DNA of 64,000 nucleotides from Actinomycetota bacterium (lineage in GTDB: Bacteria > Actinomycetota > Acidimicrobiia > Acidimicrobiales > JAMCPL01). The stretch is from the NCBI GenBank assembly GCA_023379675.1, contig JAMCPL010000014.1, positions 72,185 to 136,184 on the forward strand, given 5' to 3'. The first letter of the stretch is position 1; each line of letters begins with the position of its first letter. A program made the position numbers and the translations under genes. The notes under the pieces were generated by a model, which saw only the letters and a program-made list of their open reading frames with translations, made no database searches and had not been told where the DNA came from. Shown in pieces: positions 9,153 through 46,746 of the stretch.

Positions 9153-9170
9153 TGTTTGGAGGTAATTGTA

Positions 9171-10220: not shown

Positions 10221-10238
10221 TCGGGCCGGCAGCAACTG

Positions 10239-11917: not shown

Positions 11918-12032
11918 CCGTATATCCGGCCGGCTCCTTTCTCCGCAAAGAAGCATCCCCATGCTGCAATACATGTCGGCATCCATCTGGCCATGACTCG
12001 CAATATAAGAATATATGGAGGTAGAAAGACTT

Positions 12033-15786: not shown

Positions 15787-16607
15787 GCCGTAACCTTCAT
15801 CAGCCTTGATGGAGCCTGACGGCTCTTCACATGATCCATGGCGAACAATGCTGCCCCCAGCGCTCCCATAAAGTGCGATTCCTCGCTCACGTATATCGGA
15901 AAACCCAGAAGCTCCTCCAGTGCCTTCACCATTCCTATATTCCTGGCCACCCCACCAGTGAATGCCACATCCTGCTCGATCCCTACTCGCCGTAGGAGAC
16001 CCAGGGCCCTCCCCGCCACTGACTGGTGGACCCCGAAGAGGATGTCCTCAACCTTCTTGCCCTTACCCAGCCAGGAAAGGATCTCTGACTCAGCAAAGAC
16101 TGTACAGGTGGTGGAGATCTTCACGGGCCTCTCCGAGCGAAGCGAGGTAGGACCAAGCTCATCGAGTGGTATCTCGAGCGCAGTCGAAGCCGCTCCCAGG
16201 AACCTCCCTGTACCAGCAGCACACTTGTCGTTCATGCTGAAGTCGAGGATCTCTCCATTGGGGTTCACCTTGATCGCCTTGGTGTCCTGACCGCCCATGT
16301 CCAGGACAGTCCTCGTGGCAGGGAACATGTGCACGGCTCCCCTGCCGTGGCAGGAAATTTCCGTAGTTTGGGTATCACCAAATGTCACCTTGTAGCGTCC
16401 GTACCCGGTACCCACGATGAAGCCAACGGCCTCCTTCTCCTCATGAATGTCGCCATCCCGAAGAGCCACCTCGTAAGCATGCTCGGCCGCTATGGTGACA
16501 TTGGCACCGGTATCTATCAGAGCTCGGCCCACTATTCGCTGGTCCTCGTCGATGATGATGGCTTTTGTTTGAGTGGACCCGACATCCACTCCTGCTGCAT
16601 ATGACAT
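15783..16607 (-). CDS. BcrAD_BadFG-family ATPase subunit (benzoyl-CoA reductase A/BzdQ-like)
   Basis: It contains [20 protein letters not shown] and [13 protein letters not shown]. It overlaps the downstream ATPase gene by 4 nt. Confidence 0.75.
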
Positions 16608-16616
16608 TTATACCTC

Positions 16617-17945: not shown

Positions 17946-17975
17946 TGCAACCTCCATTTACCAATCTCTCTCCGC

Positions 17976-19142
17976 TCACACGAAGAGAATATTCTCTATG
18001 AATGTCTCCAGCTGGATCTGCAGGCTGTCGAAGCTGGTCATCGATTCTTCGAACTCGCTCACGAAGTACGGCACGCCCTCTTCGTCAAGGGCCTTTATAT
18101 ACGCCACCTGCTCGTCCAGCCCGGGCTCACACATCTTGGCCGCGGTGATGATTGCCGCACTCGCGCCGGAGTCCTTGATCCGGTCCAAGAGCATCTTTTC
18201 CTTCGGCTTTCGCAAATCATGCTGGACAGCGCTGTAGCTGGAGTGTTCCAGATAGGCATCGGCCAGGTTGCCGAGTGGGTCCCCCTCGGTCGAGACATCC
18301 TCAGTGATCCAGCGCGACCCAATCAAAAGATCATCATCCACTACATAAGAGAACTGGCCGATGGTGTGCAGCAGATCCAATGGCGGTTGTTCGCAGAAAC
18401 CTCCCTCCAGCACAAGGCGCATCCTGTCCTGAGGCTGGAGATTTCGCTTGCCCACGAGGTCCAGGGCATATCTCAGCAACTCGTTGTGCTCCTGCCTCGG
18501 CACCATACCGCCAACTGCCATCAGCACGTATGCCTCGTCCACCGCCAGCAGCCAAGGGGAGTCCCGCCTTATGGCATACATCTCTCTCAACAGCCGTCTG
18601 TTCTCGTTGAAAATGACGATTGCTGCGCGCAGATCGTCATCACTGATCCGATGACCTGCAACATCCTCGACATCCCTCTTCAGGCGATCATACTCGCCCC
18701 GCAGGTACGTGATCGCGTGAGCGGAGTTGGCATTCTGGGGCAGGTAAAGAATCTCGCACGGATAATCAAAGTTCCGTCCGTATACCGCAGCCAGGTTTCT
18801 TGCCGAGTCGCAGATGGGATGCGAAACAAACATGTCCAGCACGATCTTCCGGGTCAGGGCAAGTTCGAGGGAGGTCTTGACAATCGAGCAAAGATACCCA
18901 CCAAAGTGCGCCCCCGCCTCGCTTACCTCAAAGGATCCTCCCCTTACGGACAGAGGCAACATCCCTGCTGCCGCGACAATCTCATCTGGAAAATAGACCT
19001 GAAAACGCCCAACCACCTTGCCGCCGTTTTCACGCCAACGTTTCACCGTCGGATAGTCCACGTCTTCCACCAGATCACGGCAGTACTCGACAACACCTTC
19101 TATCGGCAGGTCCTGCCACCCTTCCAGCATGCGAACAACCAT
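17976..19142 (-). CDS. benzoyl-CoA reductase / 2-hydroxyacyl-CoA dehydratase family subunit (BcrC/BadD/BzdN-like)
   Basis: It contains GRFQVYFPDEIVAAAGMLPLSVRGG and HPICDSARNL. The start was trimmed to ATG 19142 (context gtGAGGttgctATG). The track start at 19298 lies in the leader. Confidence 0.7.
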   Translation of the reverse strand: MVVRMLEGWQDLPIEGVVEYCRDLVEDVDYPTVKRWRENGGKVVGRFQVYFPDEIVAAAGMLPLSVRGGSFEVSEAGAHFGGYLCSIVKTSLELALTRKIVLDMFVSHPICDSARNLAAVYGRNFDYPCEILYLPQNANSAHAITYLRGEYDRLKRDVEDVAGHRISDDDLRAAIVIFNENRRLLREMYAIRRDSPWLLAVDEAYVLMAVGGMVPRQEHNELLRYALDLVGKRNLQPQDRMRLVLEGGFCEQPPLDLLHTIGQFSYVVDDDLLIGSRWITEDVSTEGDPLGNLADAYLEHSSYSAVQHDLRKPKEKMLLDRIKDSGASAAIITAAKMCEPGLDEQVAYIKALDEEGVPYFVSEFEESMTSFDSLQIQLETFIENILFV

Positions 19143-19311
19143 AGCAACCTCACGCTCTTTTCCTTTATCTGGCTGGAGTTCTCCAAGCCAAGTCCTCCAC
19201 CTCATGCACGCCGACCACTGCTCGAGGATGTCGCCTGGACATCCGGTCCCTGGAGTCCCTGGCGCGGAGTCCCTGACACCATGTCGTACAATCACCACAC
19301 GTTTCCAGTGG

Positions 19312-19517: not shown

Positions 19518-19555
19518 TTGAATTGCGGATTGCCGCATTTGGAATTTCAATTCAA
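19518..19555. promoter_or_regulatory. Nested inverted repeats upstream of boxC (candidate operator)
   Basis: TTGAATT (19518-19524) pairs with AATTCAA (19549-19555). Inside lie GCGGattgCCGC (19525-19536) and GAATTtcAATTC (19542-19553). The site is 40 nt upstream of the GTG at 19595. Confidence 0.4.
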
Positions 19556-19594
19556 GCAACGATTTTTCTGATCGACTGAACGAGGAGAACGGCA

Positions 19595-21259
19595 GTGATC
19601 ACTCGGCACATAGACTTCGACACCGATCCCGGGGCCTACCGGCACTGGAAGCTCATTATCGAGCCACCGATAGCCACCGTCGTCATGGCAGTCGATCCGG
19701 CAGGGGGGTTGCATGACGGCTACGAGCTGAAACTCAATTCCTACGATCTCGCAGTCGACATCGAGTTCTACGACCTGACACAACGACTTCGTTTCGAACA
19801 TCCCGAGGTGAAGGCCGTCGTGATGACCAGCGGCCTCGATAAGGTCTTCTGCGCGGGAGCCAATATCCAGATGCTCGCTGGTTCTTCCCACCACCACAAG
19901 GTCAATTTCTGCAAGTTCACCAACGAGACACGTAACGGGGTCGAAGATGCCACGCGGTATTCCGGGCAGGTCTGGATCGCTGCAGTCAATGGCGCCGCAG
20001 CAGGTGGCGGCTACGAGCTTGCGCTCGCTTGCGATGAGATCATCCTGATTGATGATCGTGTCTCAGCGGTCTCGTTTCCGGAGGTACCACTCCTCGGCGT
20101 ACTCCCGGGCACTGGTGGACTCACCCGAGTCGTCGAGAAGCGTCATGTGCGGCGAGACCGCGCCGATGTCCTGGCAACCAAGGCCGAAGGCATAAAGGGC
20201 CACCAGGCAGTCGAGTGGGGGCTCGTCGACGAAATCGCACTGCACAGCCGTTTCGATGAGGCCGTGCGGCAACGGGCATTGGCACGCGCCGAGCAATCGG
20301 ACCGGCCTGCAGAAGAGCATGGCATCATCCTCTCCTCTATAGAGCGCAGAGAAGATACCGGCACGCTCAGCTATCCCCATCTCGAGATCCGCCTAGAACA
20401 TCATATCGGTGCAGCCTTCTTCAAGATCAAGGCTCCAACCCCCGCTCAAACCCTTTCATCATTGGACGAGATGCTTTCAGCAGGTGCAGCGTTCTGGCCC
20501 CTAGCGCTGTGCAGGGAACTCGATGACGCGGTGCTCCGCCTGCGCTTCAACGAGCCGGAACTCGGCACCTGGGTCTTTGAAACCGAGGGTCAGGCTTCAA
20601 ACGTACTGGCAGTCGGCGAGCTACTGCGCGAGCACGCCGGCCACTGGCTCGCCAGGGAAATCCGCCTGTATTGGGCGCGGACACTCCGCCGCATCGAGCT
20701 TTCGGCGCGCACGCTCGTTACTCTCATCAAGCCCGGAAGCTGCTTTGCGGGCATCCTTGCCGAGCTGGTACTGGTCGCGGATCGCTCCCTGATGCTTGAG
20801 GGCGTTGTGGGCCATTCCACGCTGCCCGCGGCATCCATCCTGCTGGACGAGATGAACGATGGCTGGTTCGTGATGACCAACGGGTTGAGCCGGCTCGAGT
20901 GCCGCTATCTCGGGCAACCGGATGACCTGCAAGCCGTGCGGGACCGGCTCGGCAAGGAGTTGCCGGCAGCAGATGCCGCCGAGCTGGGGTTGGTTACTTT
21001 CACCCCTGACGAAATCGACTTTGATGAGGAGGTACGGGTGATGCTGGAAGAGCGGAACAGCTTCTCGCCCGATGCGGTAACCGGCATGGAGGCGAACCTC
21101 CGCTTTGCTGGGCCGGAGACGATGGAAACGAAAATCTTCGCACGTCTCACCGCCTGGCAGAACTGGATATTCCAACGCCCTAATGCGTCAGGGCCCGAAG
21201 GTGCACTACGCAGCTACGGCACCGGGTCTCGTCCCAATTACGACCGGGAGCGAGTGTAA
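19595..21259 (+). CDS. boxC: benzoyl-CoA-dihydrodiol lyase (2,3-epoxybenzoyl-CoA dihydrolase)
   Basis: 554 aa double-crotonase architecture. The N-terminus is IDFDTDPGAYRHWKLIIEPPIATVVM. GTG start with a GAGGAG SD. Confidence 0.85.
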   Translation: MITRHIDFDTDPGAYRHWKLIIEPPIATVVMAVDPAGGLHDGYELKLNSYDLAVDIEFYDLTQRLRFEHPEVKAVVMTSGLDKVFCAGANIQMLAGSSHHHKVNFCKFTNETRNGVEDATRYSGQVWIAAVNGAAAGGGYELALACDEIILIDDRVSAVSFPEVPLLGVLPGTGGLTRVVEKRHVRRDRADVLATKAEGIKGHQAVEWGLVDEIALHSRFDEAVRQRALARAEQSDRPAEEHGIILSSIERREDTGTLSYPHLEIRLEHHIGAAFFKIKAPTPAQTLSSLDEMLSAGAAFWPLALCRELDDAVLRLRFNEPELGTWVFETEGQASNVLAVGELLREHAGHWLAREIRLYWARTLRRIELSARTLVTLIKPGSCFAGILAELVLVADRSLMLEGVVGHSTLPAASILLDEMNDGWFVMTNGLSRLECRYLGQPDDLQAVRDRLGKELPAADAAELGLVTFTPDEIDFDEEVRVMLEERNSFSPDAVTGMEANLRFAGPETMETKIFARLTAWQNWIFQRPNASGPEGALRSYGTGSRPNYDRERV

Positions 21260-21264
21260 TCGTC

Positions 21265-22677
21265 GTGGCGACCGCGGACTACAACACGCTGATCCCCAAT
21301 AATGTCGATCTGTCGAGCGACCGCCGGTTGCAGCGAGCACTGGAATCCTGGCAGCCTCGCTTTATTGAGTGGTGGAAGATGCTGGGACCAGTAGCATTCC
21401 AAGATCACGATGTCTACTTGCGAACGGCCATCTCTGTCGCCCAAGATGGATGGGCCAACTTCGGTTACGTCAAGATGCCGGAATATCGATGGGGCATCTT
21501 CTTGGCTGATGCGGTCCCTGGGCGGAAGATCGCTTTTGGCGATCACATGGGCATGGATGCCTGGCAAGAGGTTCCGGGTGAGTATAGGGCCGACCTCCGC
21601 CGGTTGATCGTTGTGCAAGGGGACACCGAGCCAGCCTCAGTCGAGCAACAACGGAGGCTATGCCTGACAGCACCGAGCGTATACGACCTGAGAAACCTGT
21701 TCCAGGTGAACGTGGAGGAGGGACGTCACCTGTGGGCTATGGTGTATCTCCTGCACCGGTATTTCGGCCGGGATGGTCGTGAGGAGGCGGACGACCTGCT
21801 GCAGCGCCACTCCGGCGATCAGGACAATCCGCGCATCTTGGGCGCGTTCAACCAAGCGACGCCTGACTGGCTGTCGTTCTACTTCTTCACCTACTTCACC
21901 GACCGGGACGGCAAGTTCCAACTCGCGTCCCTCAAGGAGAGCGCTTTCGACCCGCTTTCACGGACCTGCGAGTTCATGTTGAAAGAAGAAGCACATCACA
22001 TGTTCGTCGGTGCAAGCGGGGTGGCACGGGTGCTGCAACGCACCGTCGACCTCATGAAAGAGCACGACACCAGTGACGTTGCACAATTCGGTGGAATCGA
22101 CCTCGCGACTATTCAAAGATACCTCAACTTCCACTTCAGCGTTTCCCTCGATCTCTTCGGAGCCGAAACCTCCACCAATGCCGCCAATTACTTCGCGGCA
22201 GGACTCAAGGGTCGCTTCCACGAAGAGCAACGCGACGATGATCACCAGATGAAGGGCGAGAGGCGAATGGTACCCGCATTCGAAAGTGCGGCCATCACCG
22301 AGCACGAGCATGCATCACTCACGGCACTCAACGAGATGCTCCGCGAGGACTATATCGCCGACTGTGCAAAGGGCGTGGAGCGCTGGAATAGGATCCTGGC
22401 CGGAGTAGGCGCTGAACTCCGCCTGCCCCACATCGGCTTCAACCGCCATGTCGGTGTCTTCGCGGGACAACCCATCACACCCGATGGGAACGTGATAAGC
22501 GAAGGAGGCTGGAAGTCGGGGATGGCCTCTGAGTGGATCCCGATTGACTCGGACAAGGAACACGTGCAGGCGCTCATGTCTGGTATCCGTGAACCAGGAA
22601 AGATGGCAGGCTGGATCGCACCACCCGCCACCGGCATCCACGCAAAGCCCATCGAATTCGAGTACGTCCGTACATAG
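21265..22677 (+). CDS. boxB: benzoyl-CoA 2,3-epoxidase (oxygenase) subunit B
   Basis: 470 aa. It contains IPNNVDLSSDRRLQRALESWQP and the di-iron type motif MLKEEAHHMFVG. GTG start 5 nt after boxC. Confidence 0.85.
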   Translation: MATADYNTLIPNNVDLSSDRRLQRALESWQPRFIEWWKMLGPVAFQDHDVYLRTAISVAQDGWANFGYVKMPEYRWGIFLADAVPGRKIAFGDHMGMDAWQEVPGEYRADLRRLIVVQGDTEPASVEQQRRLCLTAPSVYDLRNLFQVNVEEGRHLWAMVYLLHRYFGRDGREEADDLLQRHSGDQDNPRILGAFNQATPDWLSFYFFTYFTDRDGKFQLASLKESAFDPLSRTCEFMLKEEAHHMFVGASGVARVLQRTVDLMKEHDTSDVAQFGGIDLATIQRYLNFHFSVSLDLFGAETSTNAANYFAAGLKGRFHEEQRDDDHQMKGERRMVPAFESAAITEHEHASLTALNEMLREDYIADCAKGVERWNRILAGVGAELRLPHIGFNRHVGVFAGQPITPDGNVISEGGWKSGMASEWIPIDSDKEHVQALMSGIREPGKMAGWIAPPATGIHAKPIEFEYVRT

Positions 22678-22719
22678 CGCCCCCCTTCAGTAATATCAGC
22701 AATATATGCATGCCGTCTG

Positions 22720-22779
22720 TTGCAATTTACGATGAAGTGGTATATAATATGTTCAATTGAACGGTTGGTAGATTGAACT
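22720..22779 (+). promoter_or_regulatory. Promoter (-35 TTGCAA 22720-22725, 17 bp, -10 TATAAT 22743-22748) plus conserved box ATTGAACGGTTGGTAGATTGAACT (22756-22779)
   Basis: Copy D and the best-consensus copy. The box starts 7 nt after the -10. A leader of about 105 nt contains the hairpin GCGCCTGGttagCCAGGCGT (22791-22810). Confidence 0.65.
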
Positions 22780-22885
22780 CTACTGAGAAGGCGCCTGGTT
22801 AGCCAGGCGTGGCTTCCGGTCGGTGCCGGGCTTTTCACAGCCGGAGGATTGCCAACCTGCAAAGGAAGAGGAGGTTTTTAGCAAA

Positions 22886-23173
22886 ATGACTTATGTGATT
22901 GGCGCCACCTGCATAGACGAGAAGGATCAGTCGTGTATCGATGCTTGTCCGGCGGAGTGTATCCACGCTGATGAGGGCGACCGGATGTTTTATATAGACC
23001 CGGATGAGTGCATAGACTGCGAAGCCTGTGTAGAGCCGTGCCCAGTGGACGCGATCTTCGCAGAAGAGGAGCTCCCTGCTGAGTGGAAGGAGTTCATCAC
23101 TGTAAACAGCATGTGGTACAAGGACAAGAACGCCGCGCGGGCAATGGTGGACTCGTGGATGGCGAGGAATTGA
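22886..23173 (+). CDS. fdxA: 7Fe-type (FdxA-like) ferredoxin
   Basis: It reads MTYVIGATCIDEKDQSCIDACPAECIH...CIDCEACVEPCPVDAI. The start was trimmed to ATG 22886, with a GAGGAGG SD. Confidence 0.8.
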   Translation: MTYVIGATCIDEKDQSCIDACPAECIHADEGDRMFYIDPDECIDCEACVEPCPVDAIFAEEELPAEWKEFITVNSMWYKDKNAARAMVDSWMARN

Positions 23174-23176
23174 TCT

Positions 23177-24484
23177 GTGGACAACCTTGCGGGGTCCAAG
23201 CAATTGACCGTAGCTGAGGAGATCCTGGCAAGGGCGGCAGGCAGGGAAGAGTCGAGCGCCGGCGAGTACGTGGTGGCACGGGTCGATGCCATGATGATGC
23301 ACGACATCTTTGCTGCAGATGTCCTGTCTATGCTGGAACAGGCGGGTATCCAGCACCTGCATGATCCCAGCAAGGTAACGGTGGTGTTCGACCATATGAT
23401 CCCCCCACCGTCGGTTTCCGCCGCTTCCCACCAGGCAAAGGCACGGGAGCTGATCTCGCATTTTGGTATAGATGCTTTTTTCGAGATCGGGCGCGGGATA
23501 TGCCATCAGGTGATGATCGAGGAACATCGAGTAGCGCCTGGACAGCTGGTGGTGGCTACGGATTCGCACACAACGACATACGGAGCACAAGGTGTCGCTG
23601 CAACGGGTATCGGGAGTTCGGAGATGGCTTACACCCTTGCCACTGGACAGCTGTGGTTCAAGGTGCCCGAGAGCATTAGCGTGGTCCTGGAGGGACAGTT
23701 CTCGTATGGCGTAACGGCCAAGGATCTGGTCCTGTACTTGATGAAGGCAATAGGCTCGGCAGGAGCTCAGTACCGGTCAATCGAGTTCGGCGGCGAGGGT
23801 GTGGACCAGCTGAGCTTGGCCGATCGCATGACCATCTCCAACATGGGGGTGGAGATAGGCGCCAAATTCGCTGTCTTCCCCGCCGGCTCTGTCCAGACCA
23901 TCAGGGAAAATGCCGGCTATGTGGCAAGCCATACCGTATCGCTTCGATCCTTGACTCCTCAGGTTGCTGTTCCCCATCACGTCGAGAATGTCGTAGACGT
24001 GGATGAGGTGGCAGGAACCCCCTTGGACCAGGTGTTCATAGGGTCTTGTACAAATGGAAGGCTGGAAGACCTGCGGCAGGCCGCCAGCATCCTCGAGGGA
24101 AGGCATATAGCCAAGGGATTGCGGCTGATCGTATTCCCTGCATCCTCTCATGTAATGGAAGCGGCGGCACAGGAGGGAATCATAGAGATACTTAACGAAG
24201 CAGGGGCTTATGTCGGTGGTCCCGGCTGTGGGCCCTGCTTTGGCGGGCATCTCGGGCTTCTGGCTCCCGGTGAACGTTGCTTGGGTACGCACAACCGTAA
24301 CTTTCGTGGAAGGATGGGCTCTGCAGATGCCGAGATATACCTGGGGTCTCCCATGACCGCCGCCGCATCGGCATTGGCGGGTGCTATCAGTAACCCGTGC
24401 CAGGTGGACCACATGACATCAGGAAGAGAGCCCTTTGGTGTAGTCACTGCAGGAGATCCTCTTGGCGGGAGAGGCGAGGCATGA
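23177..24484 (+). CDS. aconitase-family dehydratase large subunit (LeuC/HacA-like)
   Basis: It contains VATDSHTTTYGA, GSCTNGRLEDL and GPGCGPCFG (cluster cysteines). Confidence 0.8.
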   Translation: MDNLAGSKQLTVAEEILARAAGREESSAGEYVVARVDAMMMHDIFAADVLSMLEQAGIQHLHDPSKVTVVFDHMIPPPSVSAASHQAKARELISHFGIDAFFEIGRGICHQVMIEEHRVAPGQLVVATDSHTTTYGAQGVAATGIGSSEMAYTLATGQLWFKVPESISVVLEGQFSYGVTAKDLVLYLMKAIGSAGAQYRSIEFGGEGVDQLSLADRMTISNMGVEIGAKFAVFPAGSVQTIRENAGYVASHTVSLRSLTPQVAVPHHVENVVDVDEVAGTPLDQVFIGSCTNGRLEDLRQAASILEGRHIAKGLRLIVFPASSHVMEAAAQEGIIEILNEAGAYVGGPGCGPCFGGHLGLLAPGERCLGTHNRNFRGRMGSADAEIYLGSPMTAAASALAGAISNPCQVDHMTSGREPFGVVTAGDPLGGRGEA

Positions 24485-24996
24485 TGGCTGGTCTGCCGGC
24501 TATCCAGGGTAGAGCATGGCTATTCGGCTCCGGCATCTCTACTGATATGCTTTCACCGGGTCAGTACGTACACCACCCCATGGAGGAACGCCTGAAGCAC
24601 GTTCTGGAGTCGGCTCGTCCGGAGTTTGCCGGCGAAGTGAAGCCCGGCGACATCGTGGTGGCGGGAGCCAACTTCGGCTGCGGTTCCTCCAGGGAGTCAG
24701 CGCCCCAGCACTTGAAGGACTTGGGAGTTGCAGCTGTCGTAGCCGACTCGCTGGCGAGGATTTTCTCACGGAATGCCATTGCCATCGGTTTGGTGGCGAT
24801 TGCCTGTCCTTCGATATCCGAGGTCGTCAAGGATGGCGACACAGTTGAAATCGATGTGGTATCTGGCATAGTCAGTGTCGCAGAGCGGGGCATCGTGCTG
24901 GAAGGCGATCGGATTCCGGAGCCTATGCTCGATGTTCTGCGTCATGGCGGCATAGAGCCATTGCTCGCCTCCATAGCTGCGGAGCAGAACCGATGA
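24481..24996 (+). CDS. aconitase-family dehydratase small subunit (LeuD/HacB-like)
   Basis: It contains GANFGCGSSRESAPQHL. The start was trimmed to ATG 24481, which forms an ATGA overlap with the large subunit. Confidence 0.8.
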   Translation: MMAGLPAIQGRAWLFGSGISTDMLSPGQYVHHPMEERLKHVLESARPEFAGEVKPGDIVVAGANFGCGSSRESAPQHLKDLGVAAVVADSLARIFSRNAIAIGLVAIACPSISEVVKDGDTVEIDVVSGIVSVAERGIVLEGDRIPEPMLDVLRHGGIEPLLASIAAEQNR

Positions 24997-25469
24997 GTGA
25001 TTCTGTCATTGCGAACTTTGACGTGAACGGCCGTAGCCGGGAAGTACTGGTGAAACCCTACCACACGCTCCTCGAAATACTGAGAGAGGATCTTGGCCTT
25101 ACCGGTACCAAGCACGGCTGCGAGTTGGGCGAGTGCGGTGCTTGTACTGTGCTCGTTGACGGGTTGCCACAGCTCAGTTGCCTGCTCCTGCCACACCAGG
25201 TGGAAGGGAAAGAGATCACTACTATAGAGGGACTGGCCGAGGGCGATGAGCTGCACCCTCTCCAAGAGGCTTTTGTCGAGGCAGGGGCCGTTCAGTGTGG
25301 CTACTGCACCCCGAGCATGCTTCTTACTGCAAAAGCGCTTCTGGAGGGAGACCCCTCCCCTAGCCGTCAAGAAATAGCCGAGGCGCTCTCGGGCAATCTT
25401 TGCCGGTGCACGGGTTACGAGGCGATCACCCGGGCGGTCGAGTTGGCCGCAACGAGAATGGACACTTGA
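24993..25469 (+). CDS. [2Fe-2S] small subunit of a xanthine-dehydrogenase-family molybdoenzyme (HcrC/CoxS-like)
   Basis: It contains GCELGECGACTV and GYCTPSM...NLCRCTGY. ATGA overlap with the upstream gene. Confidence 0.85.
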   Translation: MSDSVIANFDVNGRSREVLVKPYHTLLEILREDLGLTGTKHGCELGECGACTVLVDGLPQLSCLLLPHQVEGKEITTIEGLAEGDELHPLQEAFVEAGAVQCGYCTPSMLLTAKALLEGDPSPSRQEIAEALSGNLCRCTGYEAITRAVELAATRMDT

Positions 25470-25472
25470 GCG

Positions 25473-27809
25473 ATGCGCGTGGTAGGAAAGCCCCTGGCAA
25501 AGGTCGATGCTCGAGCCAAGGTCACTGGAAGCACGCTTTACGCTGATGATCTCATCTTCTCTGATACTTTGTTCTGCAAGCTCTTGCGTAGCCCTCACCC
25601 GTACGCACGGATCAAGCACATGGACCTGAACGCCGCCAAGGCAGTTGAAGGCGTGGTGGCGGTCATCACCGGAAACGATCTGCCCGTCAAGTACGGGATA
25701 CTTCCGATCAGTCAGGACGAGCACGCGCTGGAGAGCGAAAAAGTGCGTTACGTAGGTGACCCGGTGGCAGCTGTAGCTGCTTTCGATGAAGAAACGGCAG
25801 CTCTGGCAGCTGAGAAGATCCGTGTCGAATATGAAGTGCTGGATCCGGTCACCAGTATAGAGGAAGCATTGTCCGAGCCGACCGATGAGCCGATACATGA
25901 CTATGGTGGGCCGGCGAATATCCATAAGATGGCGGCGCTCTCCTTTGGCGACCTGGAGGCCGGATTTGCCGAGGCTGATCACATCCGTGAGGACGTGTTC
26001 TTCTACGGGGGAAATACCCACCTCCCCATGGAACAACACTCTGCCATCGCCACCTACGTAAACGGCAAACTCACTTTATGGTCTTCCACCCAGACTCCGC
26101 ACTATGTACATCGAACGATTTCCAAAGTACTGGATCTGCCCATGCAGGCAATACGGGTAGTAGCCACACCTCATGGTGGTGGTTTTGGAGGGAAGACTGA
26201 CCCATTCTCCCACGAGTTGGCCGTATGCAAGCTGGCCATGGTCACCGGTAAGCCGGTCAAGTGCACTTTGACTCGTGAAGAGGTCTTCTACGCTCACAGG
26301 GGGCGCCATCCGGTCCTCATGTGGGTTCGCACGGGAATGAAGAGCAATGGCAGGATCACTGCCATGCACTTCAAGACCGCCCTGGATGGCGGAGCTTACG
26401 GCTCTTACGGGGTAGCCACCATGTTCTATACCGGAGCCCTTCAGACCACCACTTATGACATCCCCGCCTATCGTTTCGAGGGAGCGCGGGTCTTCACCAA
26501 CAAGGCTCCCTGTGGCCCGAAACGCGGGCACGGCACTCCCCAACCTCGTTTCGCCCTCGAGTTGCACCTCGACAAAATGGCCGAGGACCTGGGGCTCGAT
26601 CCGGTGGAAGTACGGCGCCGGAACTACGTGTCACCCAATACCACTACTGTGAACTGGCTCCGTATCACCTCCTGCGGGCTGGAGGAGATCACTGATCAGG
26701 TACTTCAAGCCTCCTCGTACGTGAACCGCCAGAGAGCGGTAGGTCATGGCATGGGCTTCGCCGTCGCCAGCTACCTGTGCGGCGCCGGACTTCCCATCTA
26801 CTGGAACAAACTTCCTCACAGTGAATGTCTTATCAAGCTCGACAGAGGAGGAGTAACCGTCTATTGCGGAGCGACCGACATCGGTCAAGGCTCTGACACG
26901 GTCATTGCCACCCTGGTTGCCGAGGAACTCGGACTCTGGCCATCAGATATTCGCCTGGTGACGGGCGATACTGGATTTGCTCCCGTCGATCTGGGCTCTT
27001 ACTCTTCAAGGGTTACCTTCATGGCAGGCAATGCCGCGCTGGACGCTGCCAGGAAGCTCCGGAATCTGCTCGCGGAGGTGGCCGCGGAGTCAATGGGGTG
27101 TTTGCCTGGGGAGATAGTGACAGGCGATGGCAAGTTTGGCACGCTCAGCTTCGAGGAAACCACCCAGCTGGCTCAGGAACGTTTTGGCGCCATCTCCACC
27201 GTCGGCAGCTACCGTCCCCCAGATCTGGCCGGCCCTTACAAGGGTTCGGGTGTCGGTCCCAGCCCTGCTTACAGCTACTCCGCCGCGGTGGTTGACATCG
27301 ACGTCGATCCTGAAACGGGAATAATCAAGGTGAACAAGGTCTGGCTGGCTCATGACATAGGCCGTTCCATCAACCCTGTTTCAGTAAGAGGGCAGGTGGA
27401 GGGGGGGGTCTACATGGGCTTGGGCGAAGCGCTCATGGAAGAGCAAGCGTATAGGAAAGCCATGCCCAAGCAGCCTTCCATGCTTGACTACAAGTCGCTC
27501 ACCTCTGTCGATATGCCCGAGGTAGAGACCATCCTGGTGGAAACCGATGACCCGGAGGGACCATATGGCGCCAAAGAAGTGGGGCAAGGTCCCCTCTTAC
27601 CAGTGGTTCCGGCGGTGGTCTCGGCGGTACACGACGCCCTGGGTGTATGGATCGATCAAGTACCAGTGACTCCGGACAAAATTATGAAGGCGCTGGATGC
27701 CAAGGCCAAGGGCCAGGCTCCGAGATTTGGCCCCAAGTCATTTCCCGACATCGCCTATCCTCAATACGTGAAGGTGGATACCCCCCATGTTGCGACTCAA
27801 GCCATTTAG
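25473..27809 (+). CDS. molybdopterin-binding large subunit (HcrA/XdhA/CoxL-like)
   Basis: 778 aa. It contains GKPLAKVDARAKVTGSTLYADD, GGGFGGK and GAKEVGQGPL. Confidence 0.85.
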   Translation: MRVVGKPLAKVDARAKVTGSTLYADDLIFSDTLFCKLLRSPHPYARIKHMDLNAAKAVEGVVAVITGNDLPVKYGILPISQDEHALESEKVRYVGDPVAAVAAFDEETAALAAEKIRVEYEVLDPVTSIEEALSEPTDEPIHDYGGPANIHKMAALSFGDLEAGFAEADHIREDVFFYGGNTHLPMEQHSAIATYVNGKLTLWSSTQTPHYVHRTISKVLDLPMQAIRVVATPHGGGFGGKTDPFSHELAVCKLAMVTGKPVKCTLTREEVFYAHRGRHPVLMWVRTGMKSNGRITAMHFKTALDGGAYGSYGVATMFYTGALQTTTYDIPAYRFEGARVFTNKAPCGPKRGHGTPQPRFALELHLDKMAEDLGLDPVEVRRRNYVSPNTTTVNWLRITSCGLEEITDQVLQASSYVNRQRAVGHGMGFAVASYLCGAGLPIYWNKLPHSECLIKLDRGGVTVYCGATDIGQGSDTVIATLVAEELGLWPSDIRLVTGDTGFAPVDLGSYSSRVTFMAGNAALDAARKLRNLLAEVAAESMGCLPGEIVTGDGKFGTLSFEETTQLAQERFGAISTVGSYRPPDLAGPYKGSGVGPSPAYSYSAAVVDIDVDPETGIIKVNKVWLAHDIGRSINPVSVRGQVEGGVYMGLGEALMEEQAYRKAMPKQPSMLDYKSLTSVDMPEVETILVETDDPEGPYGAKEVGQGPLLPVVPAVVSAVHDALGVWIDQVPVTPDKIMKALDAKAKGQAPRFGPKSFPDIAYPQYVKVDTPHVATQAI

Positions 27810-28767
27810 ATATCTACGCCCTGCGGGAGCGGAGGAAGCGGCTGCGATAGTCGCAGAGTTCGATGGCGAAGCGATGCTGGTAGCGGGAGGAACCGACTTG
27901 GTGCCCAAGCTGAAAAGGCGGCAGATGGAACCCTCCATATTGGTGGGAATCAGCCATCTCGAAGAACTGAGATCGCTTCGCTCCACGCCAGAGGGAGGGA
28001 TGGAAATCGGTGCAGCGATCACCCTGGCCGAGGTGACAAGAAACAAGGATCTGGAGATGCATTGGCCCGGATACGTCCAAGCGGCTTCTCTGGTGTCCTC
28101 GCCTCCGTTGAGGAACCTGGGAACCATAGGCGGCAATCTCATGGTGGACACCCGTTGCAACTACTACGACATGACCTACGAGTGGCGGCAGGCAGCAGGG
28201 TTCTGCCTCAAGAAAGACGGCGATGCCTGCCGAGTGGCTCCTGCCAGGCCACACTGCTGGGCAGTATCCTCCTCTGATACCGCTCCGGTAGCCATAGCCC
28301 TCGATGCCACCGCCGTCCTGGCCGGTCCCGAGGGACGCCGGGAGGTCCCAGTCGAATCCTTGTACCAAGACGATGGTATACACTACACAACCAAGCAGCC
28401 TTACGAGGTAGTGACCAGCCTGCACTTCCCTCCTCGAGCCGGGTGGCGGTCCTCTTACGTGAAGCTCCGTCGTCGTGGATCAATAGATTTCCCCATCGGC
28501 GGCGCCGCGGTGGCGCTGGTAATTGAAGGGGGTCGAATTATCGACTCGAGGATTGTCCTCTCCGGAGTCGCCTCACATCCAGTGGTAGCCGTCGAGGCGG
28601 CTTCATACCTGGTAGGCCACAGCCTCGATCCAGAATTGGTGGCAGAGGTTGCTGATCATGCCGCAAAGCCGGTAAAGCCGCTGGACAACGCCGATCTTGC
28701 CTACACCTGGCGAAAGAGAATGGTGAAATGGCTGGTCACCCAGGCCGTTCTCGAGGCGGGCAAATGA
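27787..28767 (+). CDS. FAD-binding medium subunit (HcrB/CoxM-like) with a four-cysteine insertion
   Basis: It contains AGGTDLVPKLK. The insertion is C124-X15-C140-X7-C148-X8-C157 (nt 28156-28257). Confidence 0.8.
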   Translation: MLRLKPFRYLRPAGAEEAAAIVAEFDGEAMLVAGGTDLVPKLKRRQMEPSILVGISHLEELRSLRSTPEGGMEIGAAITLAEVTRNKDLEMHWPGYVQAASLVSSPPLRNLGTIGGNLMVDTRCNYYDMTYEWRQAAGFCLKKDGDACRVAPARPHCWAVSSSDTAPVAIALDATAVLAGPEGRREVPVESLYQDDGIHYTTKQPYEVVTSLHFPPRAGWRSSYVKLRRRGSIDFPIGGAAVALVIEGGRIIDSRIVLSGVASHPVVAVEAASYLVGHSLDPELVAEVADHAAKPVKPLDNADLAYTWRKRMVKWLVTQAVLEAGK

Positions 28768-39239: not shown

Positions 39240-39246
39240 GACATAT

Positions 39247-46734: not shown

Positions 46735-46746
46735 AGTTGCACCCTC

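What the first reader, a model, noticed from the sequence alone, without database searches (positions are those of the whole stretch)
22886..28767. Hcr-like molybdoenzyme with a CX15CX7CX8C insertion in its FAD subunit, co-operonic with a 7Fe ferredoxin and LeuCD-like dehydratase subunits
The medium (FAD) subunit (27787-28767) carries four cysteines, C124, C140, C148 and C157 (nt 28156-28257, TRCNYYDMTYEWRQAAGFCLKKDGDACRVAPARPHCW), inside the otherwise CoxM/XdhB-like fold.

An extra [4Fe-4S] cluster bound by four Cys in an insertion of the beta subunit is the hallmark of 4-hydroxybenzoyl-CoA reductase. That enzyme runs the xanthine-oxidase electron chain in reverse, with ferredoxin as donor. 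My recollection is that the Thauera enzyme has the same Cys spacing, but this needs an alignment. The small-large-medium gene order also matches hcrCAB.

What is unusual is the operon context: a FdxA-type ferredoxin (22886-23173) and an aconitase-family LeuC/LeuD-like pair (23177-24996) precede the reductase genes with start/stop overlaps. I know of no role for an isopropylmalate-isomerase-like enzyme in 4-hydroxybenzoate metabolism.
Basis: partly seen in the sequence, partly recalled or inferred. Interest (0 to 1): 0.62.

Follow-up and report, generated by a model that had tools for sequence, protein, structure and literature searches.

The report
Variant hydroxybenzoyl-CoA reductase in aromatic-degradation operon
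An uncultured mine-tailings actinobacterium carries a ferredoxin-driven molybdenum enzyme of the 4-hydroxybenzoyl-CoA reductase type that has lost the family's universal catalytic glutamate, and the LeuCD-like genes beside it belong to a conserved, uncharacterised gene set that may turn aromatic keto-acids into benzoyl-CoA without oxygen.

Summary
Genes fdx, leuC-like, leuD-like and hcrC/A/B-like lie at 22886-28767, packed tightly or overlapping.

**The four cysteines.** They are the only Cys in the FAD subunit. They align without gaps to the [4Fe-4S] ligands of Thauera HcrB (PDB 1RM6) and are invariant in homologues. The large subunit matches HcrA far better than any other xanthine-oxidase-family enzyme.

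**Not an orthologue of the characterised enzyme.**
- All three subunits score below NCBIfam's 4-HBCR equivalog cut-offs.
- It belongs to a widespread sister clade, 37-46% identical to the Thauera clade.
- In that clade the family's catalytic Glu (Thauera Glu726) is always Gln.

**The LeuCD-like pair is not a stray leucine gene.** In about 20 Actinomycetota MAGs it sits in a conserved block: LeuCD, optionally HcrCAB, a LeuA-like condensing enzyme, IOR, a KOR-type oxidoreductase, a type III CoA-transferase, a hydratase, an SDR and a DUF35/thiolase pair. The specificity residues of LeuD and of the LeuA-like enzyme fit neither isopropylmalate nor homocitrate. They are apolar.

**Best reading.** This is a ferredoxin-dependent para-hydroxyaroyl-CoA dehydroxylase in an aromatic catabolic island. 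The LeuA/LeuCD-like enzymes may build an aryl-itaconate from an arylpyruvate for benzylsuccinate-like β-oxidation. That chemistry is inferred, not shown.

The parts
22720..22748 (+). Promoter-like site (TTGCAA-17-TATAAT) in the 209-bp AT-rich gap between boxB and fdx
   Evidence: 10 of 12 matches. This is a consensus scan only; 4.1 such sites are expected by chance in the region scanned. Sequence shown.
22886..23173 (+). 7Fe-type (FdxA-like) ferredoxin, 95 aa; proposed electron donor
   Evidence: FdxA_Actino 102 bits (cut-off 125). Cys at 9, 17, 21, 25, 42, 45, 48 and 52, i.e. CX7CX3CP...CX2CX2CX3CP. An orthologue sits upstream of the LeuCD operon in L005, L010, L013, L018, L019 and L020.
23177..24484 (+). 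LeuC-like aconitase-family large subunit, 435 aa
   Evidence: passes the subfamily models NF001614, TIGR01343 and TIGR02086; the LEU2 equivalog scores 422 against a cut-off of 610. Cluster Cys 291, 351 and 354. Orthologues of 69% identity or more occur only in about 20 Actinomycetota MAGs.
24481..24996 (+). LeuD-like small subunit, 171 aa
   Evidence: TIGR02087 158 bits (passes); leuD equivalog 128 against a cut-off of 245. Best PDB match is 3vba, the M. jannaschii isopropylmalate/citramalate isomerase small subunit.
24553..24576 (+). LeuD specificity loop SPGQYVHH (residues 25-32)
   Evidence: the clade invariantly has SPGQYVH[HDE]P. IPMI has PGRYL[VIT] and homoaconitase has PGPYLRT.
24993..25469 (+). 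HcrC-like small subunit with two [2Fe-2S] clusters, 158 aa
   Evidence: Fer2 plus Fer2_2; TIGR03193 184 bits (cut-off 258). Cys at 43, 48, 51, 63 and at 102, 105, 137, 139.
25473..27809 (+). HcrA-like molybdopterin large subunit, 778 aa
   Evidence: TIGR03194 788 bits (cut-off 995), with XdhA next at 502; 1rm6_A 572 bits, next solved relative 276.
27585..27587 (+). Codon for Gln705, at the position of the xanthine-oxidase family's catalytic Glu (Thauera Glu726)
   Evidence: Glu in HcrA, nicotinate dehydrogenase, quinoline oxidoreductase, 7dqx and CoxL, but Gln here. Gln in 120 of 120 best homologues and in 75 of 75 loci.
27787..28767 (+). HcrB-like FAD medium subunit, 326 aa
   Evidence: TIGR03195 274 bits (cut-off 405); 1rm6_B 193 bits. 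Foldseek best hit 1rm6_B, TM-score 0.83.
28156..28257 (+). Insertion carrying C124, C140, C148 and C157, the predicted [4Fe-4S] ligands
19595..22677 (+). boxC (19595-21259) and boxB (21265-22677), the aerobic benzoyl-CoA pathway; no boxA seen
   Evidence: both score above the equivalog cut-offs (821 against 712; 771 against 499).
14974..19298 (-). Four-gene class-I benzoyl-CoA-reductase-like enzyme: two BcrAD-type ATPases and two HGD-D subunits
   Evidence: the best named hits are BcrC, BcrB, BcrA and BcrD, all below the equivalog cut-offs.
9156..12785 (+). Oah/BadI-like crotonase (9156-10220), glutaconate-CoA-transferase-family pair CtAB (10239-11917) and BadH-like SDR (12015-12785). In other MAGs CtAB-SDR lies directly upstream of LeuCD.
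6177..7760 (+). Benzoate-CoA ligase family protein
   Evidence: TIGR02262 537 bits (cut-off 375).
4233..5561 (-). LeuA-like (DRE-TIM) condensing enzyme, 442 aa, with an apolar substrate pocket
   Evidence: the pocket positions are Ala/Met/Val/Cys/His, against His/Arg/Thr/Ser/His in HCS and Leu/Glu/Ser/Asn/Glu in IPMS.
1211..4236 (-). IorA (2227-4236) and IorB fused to a ferredoxin domain (1211-2230): indolepyruvate-type 2-oxoacid:ferredoxin oxidoreductase
   Evidence: TIGR03336 664 bits (cut-off 651).
1..1165 (-). First gene of a KOR-type oxidoreductase (alpha subunit); it runs off the window. The operon continues outside the window with the β and γ subunits, a type III CoA-transferase, ECH, SDR, DUF35, a thiolase, a 3-methylitaconate-isomerase-like gene and a PaaK-like ligase.
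   Evidence: locus L252.

Best explanation
**What the six genes are.** fdx-leuC'-leuD'-hcrC'-hcrA'-hcrB' most likely form one transcription unit. They lie inside an aromatic-acid catabolic island of an uncultured Acidimicrobiales-like actinobacterium from mine tailings and mine drainage.

**The reductase.** HcrC'A'B' is a three-subunit xanthine-oxidase-family molybdoenzyme of the 4-hydroxybenzoyl-CoA reductase lineage.
- Electrons from the reduced 7Fe ferredoxin enter through the extra [4Fe-4S] cluster in the FAD subunit. They then pass FAD and two [2Fe-2S] clusters to the molybdenum site.
- There a para-hydroxylated aroyl-CoA, most likely 4-hydroxybenzoyl-CoA, is reductively dehydroxylated to benzoyl-CoA.
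- Benzoyl-CoA then goes to the neighbouring class-I-reductase-like enzyme or to BoxB/BoxC.
- The enzyme belongs to a separate, widespread sister clade in which the family's catalytic Glu is Gln. Its proton chemistry, and possibly its substrate, therefore differ from the Thauera enzyme.

**The LeuCD-like pair.** LeuC'D' is not a leucine enzyme. It is a fixed member of a conserved block, listed in the evidence below.

**Proposed chemistry (inferred).**
1. Arylpyruvate + acetyl-CoA gives 2-(arylmethyl)malate (LeuA-like enzyme).
2. Dehydration gives arylmethylmaleate (LeuC'D').
3. An allylic shift gives aryl-itaconate (the 3-methylitaconate-isomerase-like protein).
4. A CoA ester is formed, then hydrated, oxidised and cleaved by thiolysis. 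The products are (4-hydroxy)benzoyl-CoA and succinyl-CoA.
5. The Hcr-like enzyme takes the 4-hydroxybenzoyl-CoA. The two 2-oxoacid oxidoreductases re-reduce the ferredoxin.

**Shown versus inferred.**
- Shown: gene content, the cofactor motifs, the clade split, the Glu-to-Gln change, the synteny, the altered specificity residues and transcript fragments.
- Inferred: every substrate and the direction of every step.
For: **Hcr lineage**
- Searches place all three subunits in the Hcr lineage.
- the model of the FAD subunit is closest to 1rm6_B (TM-score 0.83).
- The four Cys ligands are conserved.

**Separate clade**
- Identity is at least 54% within each clade and 37-46% between them.
- There are 15 fixed differences, including E726Q.
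- Gln occurs in 120 of 120 homologues and 75 of 75 loci. All five best solved relatives have Glu.

**Aromatic acyl-CoA context**
- boxC and boxB score above the equivalog cut-offs, and a benzoate-CoA ligase and a BCR-like enzyme are present.
- In unrelated Burkholderiales MAGs the same Hcr clade again sits next to a benzoate-CoA ligase and boxBC (L202, L214, L243).

**LeuCD module**
- The order LeuCD, optionally HcrCAB, LeuA-like, IorAB, KorABC, type III CoA-transferase, ECH, SDR, DUF35 and thiolase recurs in L008/L261, L011, L015-L017, L023, L172 and L262.
- In L262, HcrCAB heads that operon.

**Specificity residues**
- The LeuD loop is YVH, against YLV in IPMI and YLR in homoaconitase.
- The LeuA-like pocket is Ala/Met/Val/Cys/His. 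Its Ala matches HphA Ala73, the residue shown to gate aromatic substrates (PMC12961565).

**Other components**
- The isomerase-like protein best matches E. barkeri 3-methylitaconate isomerase: 292 bits, against 190 and 183 for LigU and PrpF.
- The thiolase and DUF35 proteins have BbsB and BbsA among their named hits.
- The CoA-transferase is of the dicarboxylate type (SUGCT, mesaconate).
- No LeuB-type dehydrogenase lies in any of these operons. That fits a dehydratase-only role for LeuCD.

**Expression**
- Metatranscriptome contigs 94-99% identical cover the fdx/leuC and leuD/hcrC junctions, leuC, hcrA and hcrB.
Against: - No biochemical data exist for any member of this Hcr clade. Gln cannot act as the acid/base that Glu provides, so the reaction may differ from 4-HBCR.
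- All three subunits score below the curated equivalog cut-offs.
- The same Hcr clade occurs in presumably aerobic soil phyla (Dormibacterota, Acidobacteriota) without LeuCD or a ferredoxin nearby.
- The LeuA-like clade is broad. It sometimes stands alone (L254, L256) or has the oxidoreductases but no adjacent LeuCD (L257). Its role need not be tied to aromatics.
- The isomerase-like gene was found only in this genome, its close relative and two short contigs.
- The β-oxidation genes score far below the Bbs equivalog cut-offs.
- In the proposed route the IOR has no carbon-skeleton role.
- The structure model is unreliable in the Cys loop (pLDDT below 50 for residues 122-160).
- The metatranscriptome could contain DNA.
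Confidence: 0.45

Rival explanations
1. The Hcr part is as described above. LeuA'/LeuC'D' instead run a full HphABCD-style one-carbon elongation: arylpyruvate to benzylmalate to 3-benzylmalate to 2-oxo-4-arylbutyrate. One of the two 2-oxoacid:ferredoxin oxidoreductases then makes arylpropionyl-CoA, which ordinary β-oxidation shortens to (4-hydroxy)benzoyl-CoA.
For: - The operon holds two different oxidoreductases.
- The LeuA-like pocket is apolar and has the HphA-like Ala (PMC12961565).
- The hydratase, SDR and thiolase lie downstream.
- PaaK-like ligases sit next to the block.
Against: - No LeuB-type decarboxylating dehydrogenase and no acyl-CoA dehydrogenase lie in the conserved operon.
- The dicarboxylate-type type III CoA-transferase, the DUF35 partner of the thiolase and the methylitaconate-isomerase-like gene would have no role.
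Confidence: 0.15
2. The LeuA-like and LeuCD-like enzymes are a citrate-synthase/aconitase-like branch. It supplies 2-oxoglutarate to the KOR-type enzyme, whose only task is to reduce the ferredoxin for the Hcr-like and BCR-like enzymes. This is the role of the KGOR/ferredoxin system in the Thauera bcr cluster.
For: - The KOR-type oxidoreductase and the ferredoxin are in the same gene set.
- Malate dehydrogenase is adjacent in this genome.
- Re-citrate synthases are LeuA-family proteins, and Thauera couples KGOR to ring reduction (own knowledge).
Against: - The LeuA-like enzyme has Met and Val where homocitrate synthases use Arg and Ser/Thr to hold the distal carboxylate. It has Ala where they have His.
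- The LeuD loop lacks the Arg of homoaconitase and aconitase.
- No isocitrate dehydrogenase is present.
- MDH adjacency is seen only in this genome and its close relative.
Confidence: 0.1
3. The Gln-type Hcr-like enzyme is not a 4-hydroxybenzoyl-CoA reductase. It would act on a different aryl or heteroaryl (CoA) substrate, or run oxidatively as 2-furoyl-CoA dehydrogenase does. Its presence in the operon would then reflect another step of the same pathway.
For: - It scores below all three equivalog cut-offs.
- The catalytic Glu is replaced in every member.
- The clade is common in aerobic soil phyla, with varied neighbours such as aroC and a CoA-transferase-family pair in Dormibacterota.
- [4Fe-4S]-bearing FAD subunits also exist in oxidising enzymes (5y6q; PaoB, own knowledge).
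Against: - Base-catalysed hydroxylation needs the Glu, so Gln argues against an oxidative role rather than for it (PMC11760930 calls the Glu essential).
- The Cys loop has exactly the HcrB spacing, unlike that of 5y6q_B.
- Benzoate-CoA ligase and boxBC neighbours recur in two phyla.
Confidence: 0.2
4. The LeuCD-like genes are ordinary amino-acid biosynthesis genes (leucine, isoleucine or lysine) that merely lie next to hcr, with no functional link.
For: - Both proteins pass the broad IPMI/homoaconitase subfamily models.
- Prephenate dehydratase and prephenate dehydrogenase, which are housekeeping genes, lie just downstream.
Against: - The genes overlap start-to-stop with fdx and hcrC.
- Synteny with catabolic genes holds in about 20 MAGs down to 69% identity.
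- The specificity loops differ from those of IPMI and homoaconitase.
- The partner LeuA-like enzyme lacks the IPMS and HCS pockets and the regulatory domain.
- No leuB is present.
- True HCS/homoaconitase pairs in Anaerolineae loci keep the canonical motifs.
Confidence: 0.05

Closest known systems
4-Hydroxybenzoyl-CoA reductase HcrCAB of Thauera aromatica (PDB 1RM6/1SB3)
   Same: - Three subunits in the same gene order.
- Same domain set.
- Identical CX15CX7CX8C [4Fe-4S] loop in the FAD subunit.
- By far the closest solved relative of both the large and the medium subunit.
- An aromatic acyl-CoA gene neighbourhood.
   Different: - Only about 41% (alpha) and 35% (beta) identical.
- Below the NCBIfam equivalog cut-offs.
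- Glu726 is replaced by Gln.
- The adjacent ferredoxin is of the 7Fe type, not the 2[4Fe-4S] type (own knowledge for Thauera).
- Embedded with box genes and a LeuCD module.
Other xanthine-oxidase-family enzymes with a Cys-rich insertion in the FAD subunit (Methylobacillus aldehyde oxidase 5Y6Q; E. coli PaoABC 5G5G)
   Same: The insertion lies at the same position of the FAD subunit, with Cys residues there (alignment to 5y6q_B).
   Different: - Different Cys spacing, with gaps needed in the alignment.
- Their large subunits are far more distant (171-189 bits against 572).
- They are oxidising enzymes that keep the catalytic Glu.
Urolithin C dehydroxylase UcdCFO of Enterocloster (PMC11760930)
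   Same: A xanthine-oxidase-family enzyme that removes a phenolic hydroxyl reductively.
   Different: It lacks the [4Fe-4S] loop and keeps the conserved Glu (E741). Its substrate is not a CoA ester (PMC11760930).
Eubacterium barkeri nicotinate fermentation: 3-methylitaconate Δ-isomerase (Mii, 3G7K) plus dimethylmaleate hydratase DmdAB (LeuCD-type)
   Same: A LeuCD-type hydro-lyase and a PrpF-family allylic isomerase work in sequence on substituted maleate/itaconate. The isomerase-like protein of this island matches Mii best. NCBIfam names the small-subunit family 'LeuD/DmdB'.
   Different: - There the flow runs itaconate to maleate to malate and ends in a lyase of another family.
- Here a LeuA-type synthase implies the opposite direction.
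- The substrate here is probably aromatic.
- The pairing in E. barkeri is cited from own knowledge.
HphA/HphCD benzylmalate synthase and isomerase of cyanobacterial homophenylalanine biosynthesis
   Same: LeuA-family and LeuCD-family enzymes that act on arylpyruvates. The LeuA-like enzyme here shares the small Ala at the position of HphA Ala73 (PMC12961565).
   Different: - A biosynthetic pathway with an HphB dehydrogenase.
- The other pocket residues differ: HphA has Asp/Ala/Met/Ser, this enzyme Met/Val/Cys/His.
Benzylsuccinate β-oxidation (BbsEF, G, H, CD, AB) of anaerobic toluene degraders
   Same: The architecture matches: type III CoA-transferase, enoyl-CoA hydratase, SDR and a DUF35 plus thiolase pair. 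BbsA and BbsB are among the named hits, and BbsEF is a detectable relative.
   Different: - One transferase gene and one SDR gene instead of two of each.
- No BbsG-type dehydrogenase in the conserved block.
- All scores are far below the Bbs cut-offs.
- No glycyl-radical synthase was seen.
Ferredoxin plus 2-oxoglutarate:ferredoxin oxidoreductase encoded with the ring reductase in Thauera aromatica
   Same: A low-potential ferredoxin and 2-oxoacid:ferredoxin oxidoreductases are encoded with ferredoxin-consuming aromatic reductases.
   Different: Here there are two oxidoreductases (IOR-type and KOR-type) and a 7Fe ferredoxin. The Thauera system is cited from own knowledge.

Membership tests
4-Hydroxybenzoyl-CoA reductase (HcrCAB/HbaBCD) | Three subunits of the xanthine-oxidase family: Mo-binding alpha, FAD beta and 2x[2Fe-2S] gamma | tested here: met
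   Pfam and NCBIfam domains; eight Cys in the gamma subunit.
4-Hydroxybenzoyl-CoA reductase (HcrCAB/HbaBCD) | Insertion in the beta subunit with four Cys that bind an extra [4Fe-4S] cluster | tested here: met
   Gap-free alignment of C124/140/148/157 with C122/138/146/155 of 1rm6_B. The Cys are invariant in homologues. Cluster binding itself was not testable.
4-Hydroxybenzoyl-CoA reductase (HcrCAB/HbaBCD) | Alpha subunit closer to HcrA than to CO, aldehyde, xanthine or quinoline enzymes | tested here: met
   572 bits to 1rm6_A against 276 or less for all others. TIGR03194 788 bits against XdhA 502.
4-Hydroxybenzoyl-CoA reductase (HcrCAB/HbaBCD) | Scores above the curated equivalog cut-offs (TIGR03194, TIGR03195, TIGR03193) | tested here: not met
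   788 against 995, 274 against 405 and 184 against 258.
4-Hydroxybenzoyl-CoA reductase (HcrCAB/HbaBCD) | Conserved active-site Glu (Thauera Glu726, bovine XDH Glu1261) | tested here: not met
   Gln705. Gln throughout the clade. Glu throughout the Thauera clade.
4-Hydroxybenzoyl-CoA reductase (HcrCAB/HbaBCD) | Gene order gamma-alpha-beta (hcrCAB) | tested here: met
4-Hydroxybenzoyl-CoA reductase (HcrCAB/HbaBCD) | [quoted passage not shown] | not testable with these tools
   Context only: the adjacent ferredoxin, benzoate-CoA ligase, boxBC and a BCR-like enzyme.
3-Isopropylmalate dehydratase (LeuCD) | Aconitase-family large subunit with three cluster Cys, and a small subunit with GCGSSRE | tested here: met
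3-Isopropylmalate dehydratase (LeuCD) | Equivalog-level scores and the IPMI specificity loop (PGRYL-V/I/T) | tested here: not met
   LEU2 422 against 610; leud 128 against 246. The loop is SPGQYVH.
3-Isopropylmalate dehydratase (LeuCD) | Partnership with IPMS (LeuA) and LeuB | tested here: not met
   The partner LeuA-like enzyme lacks the IPMS pocket. No LeuB lies in any of the operons.
Homoaconitase (HacAB/LysTU) | Arg in the small-subunit loop (YLRT) and partnership with homocitrate synthase (VRFS/T, REGEQ) | tested here: not met
   The loop is YVH. The partner has VMFV and RDGLQ.
7Fe (FdxA-type) ferredoxin | CX7CX3CP ... CX2CX2CX3CP cysteine pattern | tested here: met
   The best families are FdxA_Actino and FdxA_Protbact, but both score below their cut-offs (102 against 125).
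Benzylsuccinate β-oxidation (Bbs) module | BbsEF, BbsG, BbsH, BbsCD and BbsAB orthologues | tested here: inconclusive
   The architecture is partly matched: type III transferase, ECH, SDR, DUF35 and thiolase. BbsB scores 293 against 750 and BbsA 49 against 250. No BbsG is present.
Aerobic benzoyl-CoA (Box) pathway | BoxA reductase, BoxB epoxidase and BoxC lyase | tested here: inconclusive
   BoxB and BoxC score above their cut-offs. No BoxA was found among the annotated genes of the island; the rest of the genome was not seen.

The most novel reading that the evidence does not exclude
These Actinomycetota would use a previously undescribed oxygen-independent route from phenylalanine or tyrosine (arylpyruvates) to benzoyl-CoA.
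1. A LeuA-like synthase, a LeuCD-like dehydratase and a methylitaconate-isomerase-like enzyme build (4-hydroxy)phenylitaconate, the key intermediate of the toluene/p-cresol fumarate-addition pathway.
2. A Bbs-like β-oxidation releases (4-hydroxy)benzoyl-CoA plus succinyl-CoA.
3. A new Gln-type 4-hydroxybenzoyl-CoA reductase, fed by a 7Fe ferredoxin, finishes the job.
Probability: 0.25. Interest if true: 0.8.

Novelty: new variant of a known kind. Interest (0 to 1): 0.62.

Why it matters
**The reductase.** 4-Hydroxybenzoyl-CoA reductase is the textbook case of a xanthine-oxidase-type enzyme running backwards. It has been studied biochemically and structurally in Thauera, with genetic evidence in R. 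palustris.
- The sister clade found here is large: thousands of database sequences across Actinomycetota, Dormibacterota, Acidobacteriota and Burkholderiales.
- It keeps the ferredoxin-entry cluster but has swapped the catalytic Glu, considered essential in the family, for Gln.
- That gives a natural experiment on what the Glu does in the reverse reaction.
- It also warns that the automatic label "4-hydroxybenzoyl-CoA reductase" on these genes is untested.

**The gene block.** The conserved block from LeuCD and the LeuA-like gene through the two oxidoreductases to the Bbs-like genes gives a concrete, cheaply testable hypothesis. It would explain how uncultured anaerobic or micro-aerobic actinobacteria in mine wastes and sediments channel aromatic amino acids or phenylpropanoids into benzoyl-CoA. 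It would do so without the molybdenum-dependent α-oxidation of phenylacetyl-CoA.

Tried and rejected
- **Structure prediction of the FAD subunit**. The overall fold is good (pTM 0.83; best Foldseek hit 1rm6_B). The Cys loop (residues 122-160) has pLDDT below 50 and no coordinates are returned, so convergence of the four Cys could not be judged.
- **All-against-all clustering of neighbours of 80 Hcr-clade loci**. It was dominated by shadow ORFs, and nothing beyond HcrCAB was conserved in more than about 13 of 80 loci. I replaced it with targeted searches.
- **Greedy ORF calling on high-GC loci**. It was noisy, so tblastn maps were used instead.
- **Genome scan with the isomerase-like protein**. 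It gave only 3 loci, so the conservation of that gene is unproven.
- **Literature searches**. The terms were 4-HBCR with isopropylmalate, indolepyruvate, Dormibacter or boxB, and phenylmalate and benzylmalate. No description of this gene set or of the Gln clade turned up. One SAR324 paper lists Box genes and a 4-HBCR in MAGs.
- **An apparent reciprocal Q673E swap**. Dropped, because that position varies across the family.
- **LeuA-like as homocitrate synthase, Re-citrate synthase or IPMS.** Rejected on pocket residues.
- **The HGD-D pair as a 2-hydroxyacyl-CoA dehydratase.** Thought less likely than a BCR-like enzyme, because there are two distinct ATPase genes and the best hits are BcrB/BcrC.
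- **The CtAB pair.** It cannot be assigned. AibA (a decarboxylase), GctA (a transferase) and IpdA (a ring hydrolase) score almost equally.

Full report
**1. What is in the sequence**

Positions 22886-28767 of the + strand hold six tightly packed genes. Independent gene calls on identical public contigs agree.

| Gene | Coordinates | Junction |
|---|---|---|
| fdx | 22886-23173 | 3 nt before leuC' |
| leuC-like | 23177-24484 | overlaps leuD' by 4 nt |
| leuD-like | 24481-24996 | overlaps hcrC' by 4 nt |
| hcrC-like | 24993-25469 | 3 nt before hcrA' |
| hcrA-like | 25473-27809 | overlaps hcrB' by 23 nt |
| hcrB-like | 27787-28767 | - |

- A 209-bp AT-rich gap with a TTGCAA-17-TATAAT match and a strong ribosome-binding site precedes fdx.
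- Malate dehydrogenase on the other strand follows hcrB.
- The same DNA occurs in MAGs GCA_023486005.1 and GCA_027449425.1 and in mine-tailings, mine-drainage and sediment metagenomes.
- Relatives are labelled Actinomycetota, Acidimicrobiales or Acidimicrobiaceae.

**2. The four cysteines**

- The medium subunit has only four Cys in 326 residues (C124, C140, C148, C157), all within nt 28156-28257.
- phmmer against the PDB aligns residues 4-311 with Thauera aromatica HcrB (1rm6_B; 193 bits). There is no gap in the loop, and the four Cys fall on HcrB Cys122/138/146/155.
- They are invariant in 36 homologues down to 57% identity.
- The CX15CX7CX8C spacing occurs in 69 of 72 loci of the same clade and throughout the Thauera clade.
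- The AlphaFold2 model has the right fold (pTM 0.83; best Foldseek hit 1rm6_B, TM-score 0.83). It is unreliable in the loop (pLDDT below 50 for residues 122-160). Prediction therefore neither adds to nor detracts from the alignment.
- Caveat: a Cys-bearing insertion at this site also exists in the Methylobacillus aldehyde oxidase (5y6q_B, different spacing) and in E. coli PaoB (own knowledge). The cluster is a strong hallmark of 4-HBCR but not an exclusive one.

**3. The large subunit and the clade split**

- HcrA' matches 1rm6_A at 572 bits, against 276 bits for the next solved relative.
- Its best NCBIfam family is 4-HBCR alpha, at 788 bits, with XdhA next at 502.
- All three subunits nevertheless fall below the curated equivalog cut-offs: 788 against 995, 274 against 405 and 184 against 258.
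- I compared 65 HcrA sequences around Thauera-type hcrB genes with 64 sequences around relatives of the window's gene. They form two groups: at least 54-56% identity within each and 37-46% between them.
- Only 15 positions are fixed differently. One is Thauera Glu726, which is Gln here (Gln705).
- That Gln is present in 120 of 120 best database homologues and in 75 of 75 loci.
- The five best solved relatives all have Glu at this position: HcrA, nicotinate dehydrogenase, quinoline oxidoreductase, 6-hydroxypseudooxynicotine dehydrogenase and mycobacterial CoxL.
- The literature calls this Glu essential in xanthine-dehydrogenase-family enzymes (PMC11760930).
- The Gln clade is large and spans Actinomycetota, Dormibacterota, Acidobacteriota, Burkholderiales, Myxococcota and SAR324. 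JGI labels its members 4-HBCR automatically.
- I found no paper that characterises one.

**4. Context supports an aroyl-CoA substrate**

- Immediately upstream lie boxC and boxB, both above their equivalog cut-offs.
- Divergent from them is a four-gene class-I benzoyl-CoA-reductase-like enzyme.
- Further on lie a benzoate-CoA ligase family gene, an Oah/BadI-like crotonase, a BadH-like SDR, an acyl-CoA dehydrogenase and a TetR regulator.
- In unrelated Burkholderiales MAGs the Gln-clade hcrCAB again lies beside a benzoate-CoA ligase homologue and boxBC (L202, L214, L243).
- Reductive removal of a para-hydroxyl from an aroyl-CoA to give benzoyl-CoA is therefore the most economical reading.
- The 7Fe ferredoxin is the obvious donor (Cys pattern). 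Its orthologue accompanies the operon in other Actinomycetota.
- No boxA was seen. The ferredoxin gene sits directly after boxB.

**5. The LeuCD-like pair belongs to a larger conserved module**

LeuC' orthologues of 69% identity or more occur only in about 20 Actinomycetota MAGs. The next relatives, at 51% or less, are archaeal and Chloroflexi IPMI or homoaconitase genes. tblastn maps and Pfam gene calls show a constant order wherever the contig is long enough:
- optionally Fdx, CtA, CtB and an SDR
- LeuC and LeuD
- optionally HcrCAB
- the LeuA-like gene
- IorA and IorB
- KorA, KorB and KorC
- a type III CoA-transferase
- an enoyl-CoA hydratase, an SDR, DUF35 and a thiolase

Details of the variation:
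- Hcr lies between LeuD and the LeuA-like gene in L005/L172, L010 and L018. L009, L013, L014 and L019 show LeuCD followed by HcrCAB, but no LeuA-like gene is mapped after it on the sequence held. In L262, HcrCAB heads the LeuA-to-thiolase operon.
- Hcr is absent from that position in L006, L008/L261, L011, L015-L017 and L023. At least four of those MAGs carry the same Hcr elsewhere (L174, L175, L176, L231).
- In the window the module is split. Fdx, LeuCD and Hcr are at 22.9-28.8 kb, CtAB and the SDR at 10.2-12.8 kb, and the LeuA-like gene, IorAB and the start of Kor at 5.6-0 kb on the minus strand.
- The operon continues outside the window through the β-oxidation genes, a PrpF-family gene and a PaaK-like ligase.

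**6. These are not leucine or lysine enzymes**

- The LeuD' specificity loop is invariantly SPGQYVH[HDE]P. IPMI has PGRYL(V/I/T) and homoaconitase has PGPYLRT.
- The LeuA-like enzyme keeps the catalytic Arg-Asp and HxH motifs.
- At the five side-chain-contacting positions tabulated for HphA, HCS and IPMS (PMC12961565) it reads as follows:

| Enzyme | Pocket residues |
|---|---|
| Window LeuA-like | Ala / Met / Val / Cys / His |
| HCS | His / Arg / Thr / Ser / His |
| IPMS | Leu / Glu / Ser / Asn / Glu |

- The Ala equals HphA Ala73, the residue shown experimentally to gate aromatic substrates.
- The carboxylate-binding Arg of homocitrate synthases is Met.
- The signature (MFV, RDGLQ) is present in 120 of 120 best homologues.
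- Genuine HCS/homoaconitase pairs in neighbouring Anaerolineae loci keep VRFS and REGEQ.
- No LeuB-type dehydrogenase lies in any of the operons.

**7. Proposed mechanism for the module (inference)**

A LeuA-type synthase, a LeuCD-type hydro-lyase and the PrpF-family protein could together make (4-hydroxy)phenylitaconate from (4-hydroxy)phenylpyruvate and acetyl-CoA.
- The PrpF-family protein's best solved relative by a wide margin is E. barkeri 3-methylitaconate Δ-isomerase: 292 bits, against 190 for LigU and 183 for PrpF.
- The dicarboxylate-type CoA-transferase resembles SUGCT and mesaconate transferases and is distantly related to BbsEF.
- Together with the hydratase, the SDR and the DUF35/thiolase pair (BbsA/BbsB among the named hits), it would convert that product to (4-hydroxy)benzoyl-CoA plus succinyl-CoA. 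This is what happens in benzylsuccinate β-oxidation.
- The carbon balance closes: C9 + C2 = C7 + C4.
- The model explains four things: why Hcr is an optional insert, why no LeuB is needed, why the pockets are apolar, and why ferredoxin-reducing oxidoreductases and a ferredoxin are co-encoded.
- Precedent for a LeuCD-type enzyme working next to a PrpF-type isomerase is the E. barkeri nicotinate pathway (own knowledge).

Weak points:
- The isomerase gene's conservation is unproven.
- The LeuA-like clade is broader than the module and sometimes stands alone.
- The IOR has no skeleton role.
- All named matches are below the curated cut-offs.

**8. Expression**

One mine-drainage metatranscriptome has short contigs 94-99% identical to the following:
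- the bcr-like genes
- the fdx/leuC junction (22984-23180)
- leuC
- the leuD/hcrC junction (24895-25084)
- hcrA and hcrB

This is consistent with expression and co-transcription in a close relative. DNA carry-over cannot be excluded.

**9. Verdict**

- The enzyme is best filed as a new variant (the Gln clade) of the 4-HBCR kind, not as an orthologue of the characterised enzyme.
- The LeuCD-like genes are part of a conserved, uncharacterised catabolic module whose chemistry I can only propose.
- My probabilities:
  - ferredoxin-dependent aroyl-CoA dehydroxylase, about 0.75
  - 4-hydroxybenzoyl-CoA as substrate, about 0.55
  - LeuCD functionally tied to the LeuA-like, oxidoreductase and β-oxidation block, about 0.9
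  - the specific aryl-itaconate route, about 0.25-0.3

Noticed in passing
window 19595-23173: boxC and boxB are present and score above their equivalog cut-offs, but no boxA reductase gene was seen. The 7Fe ferredoxin gene follows boxB after a 209-bp gap. A free ferredoxin might replace BoxA as electron donor to the epoxidase.
   Followed up: partly
window 14974-22677: A class-I benzoyl-CoA-reductase-like enzyme (oxygen-sensitive chemistry) and the oxygen-dependent BoxBC genes are transcribed divergently from one 300-bp intergenic region. This suggests one island serving both anoxic and micro-oxic conditions. All four Bcr-like subunits score well below the equivalog cut-offs.
   Followed up: partly
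window 10239-11917: The CoA_trans pair CtAB matches three functionally different solved relatives almost equally: AibA (3-methylglutaconyl-CoA decarboxylase), GctA (glutaconate CoA-transferase) and IpdA (ring-cleaving hydrolase of M. tuberculosis). It lies between an Oah/BadI-like crotonase and a BadH-like SDR, so it may not be a transferase.
   Followed up: partly
loci L085-L090 and L179-L185 (Dormibacterota and others): In Dormibacterota the Gln-clade hcrCAB follows a HAD hydrolase gene. It is divergent from chorismate synthase (aroC) plus a CoA_trans pair about 31-37% identical to CtAB. Polyprenyl synthase and a UbiE-like methyltransferase are nearby. The context looks biosynthetic or quinone-related rather than catabolic.
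   Followed up: no
window 7736-8680 (-): An Amidohydro_2 family gene (the family of LigJ hydratases and non-oxidative aromatic decarboxylases) has no NCBIfam match. It sits between the benzoate-CoA ligase and the crotonase.
   Followed up: no
locus L257: In another lineage the LeuA-like, IorAB and KorABC block (64% identity) is flanked by a TetR regulator, a PaaK-like ligase and an ADP-forming acyl-CoA synthetase, with no LeuCD nearby. That looks like an amino-acid fermentation module.
   Followed up: no
window 34468-48700: A Tad/Flp-type pilus cluster (T2SSE ATPase, two T2SSF genes, TadE-like genes) lies next to a 1148-aa protein with a weak LysM match. Several neighbouring ORFs have no Pfam hit.
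   Followed up: partly
window 50000-60000: GC content rises to 0.62-0.63 here, against about 0.57 elsewhere. The stretch holds three long ORFs (1048, 881 and 951 aa) that I did not annotate.
   Followed up: no
window 19767-19896 (boxC): One contig of metatranscriptome X20 (90-95% identical, so from another organism) joins 19767 to 19896 and skips 128 nt. This is most likely a divergent homologue aligning in pieces rather than a real deletion.
   Followed up: no
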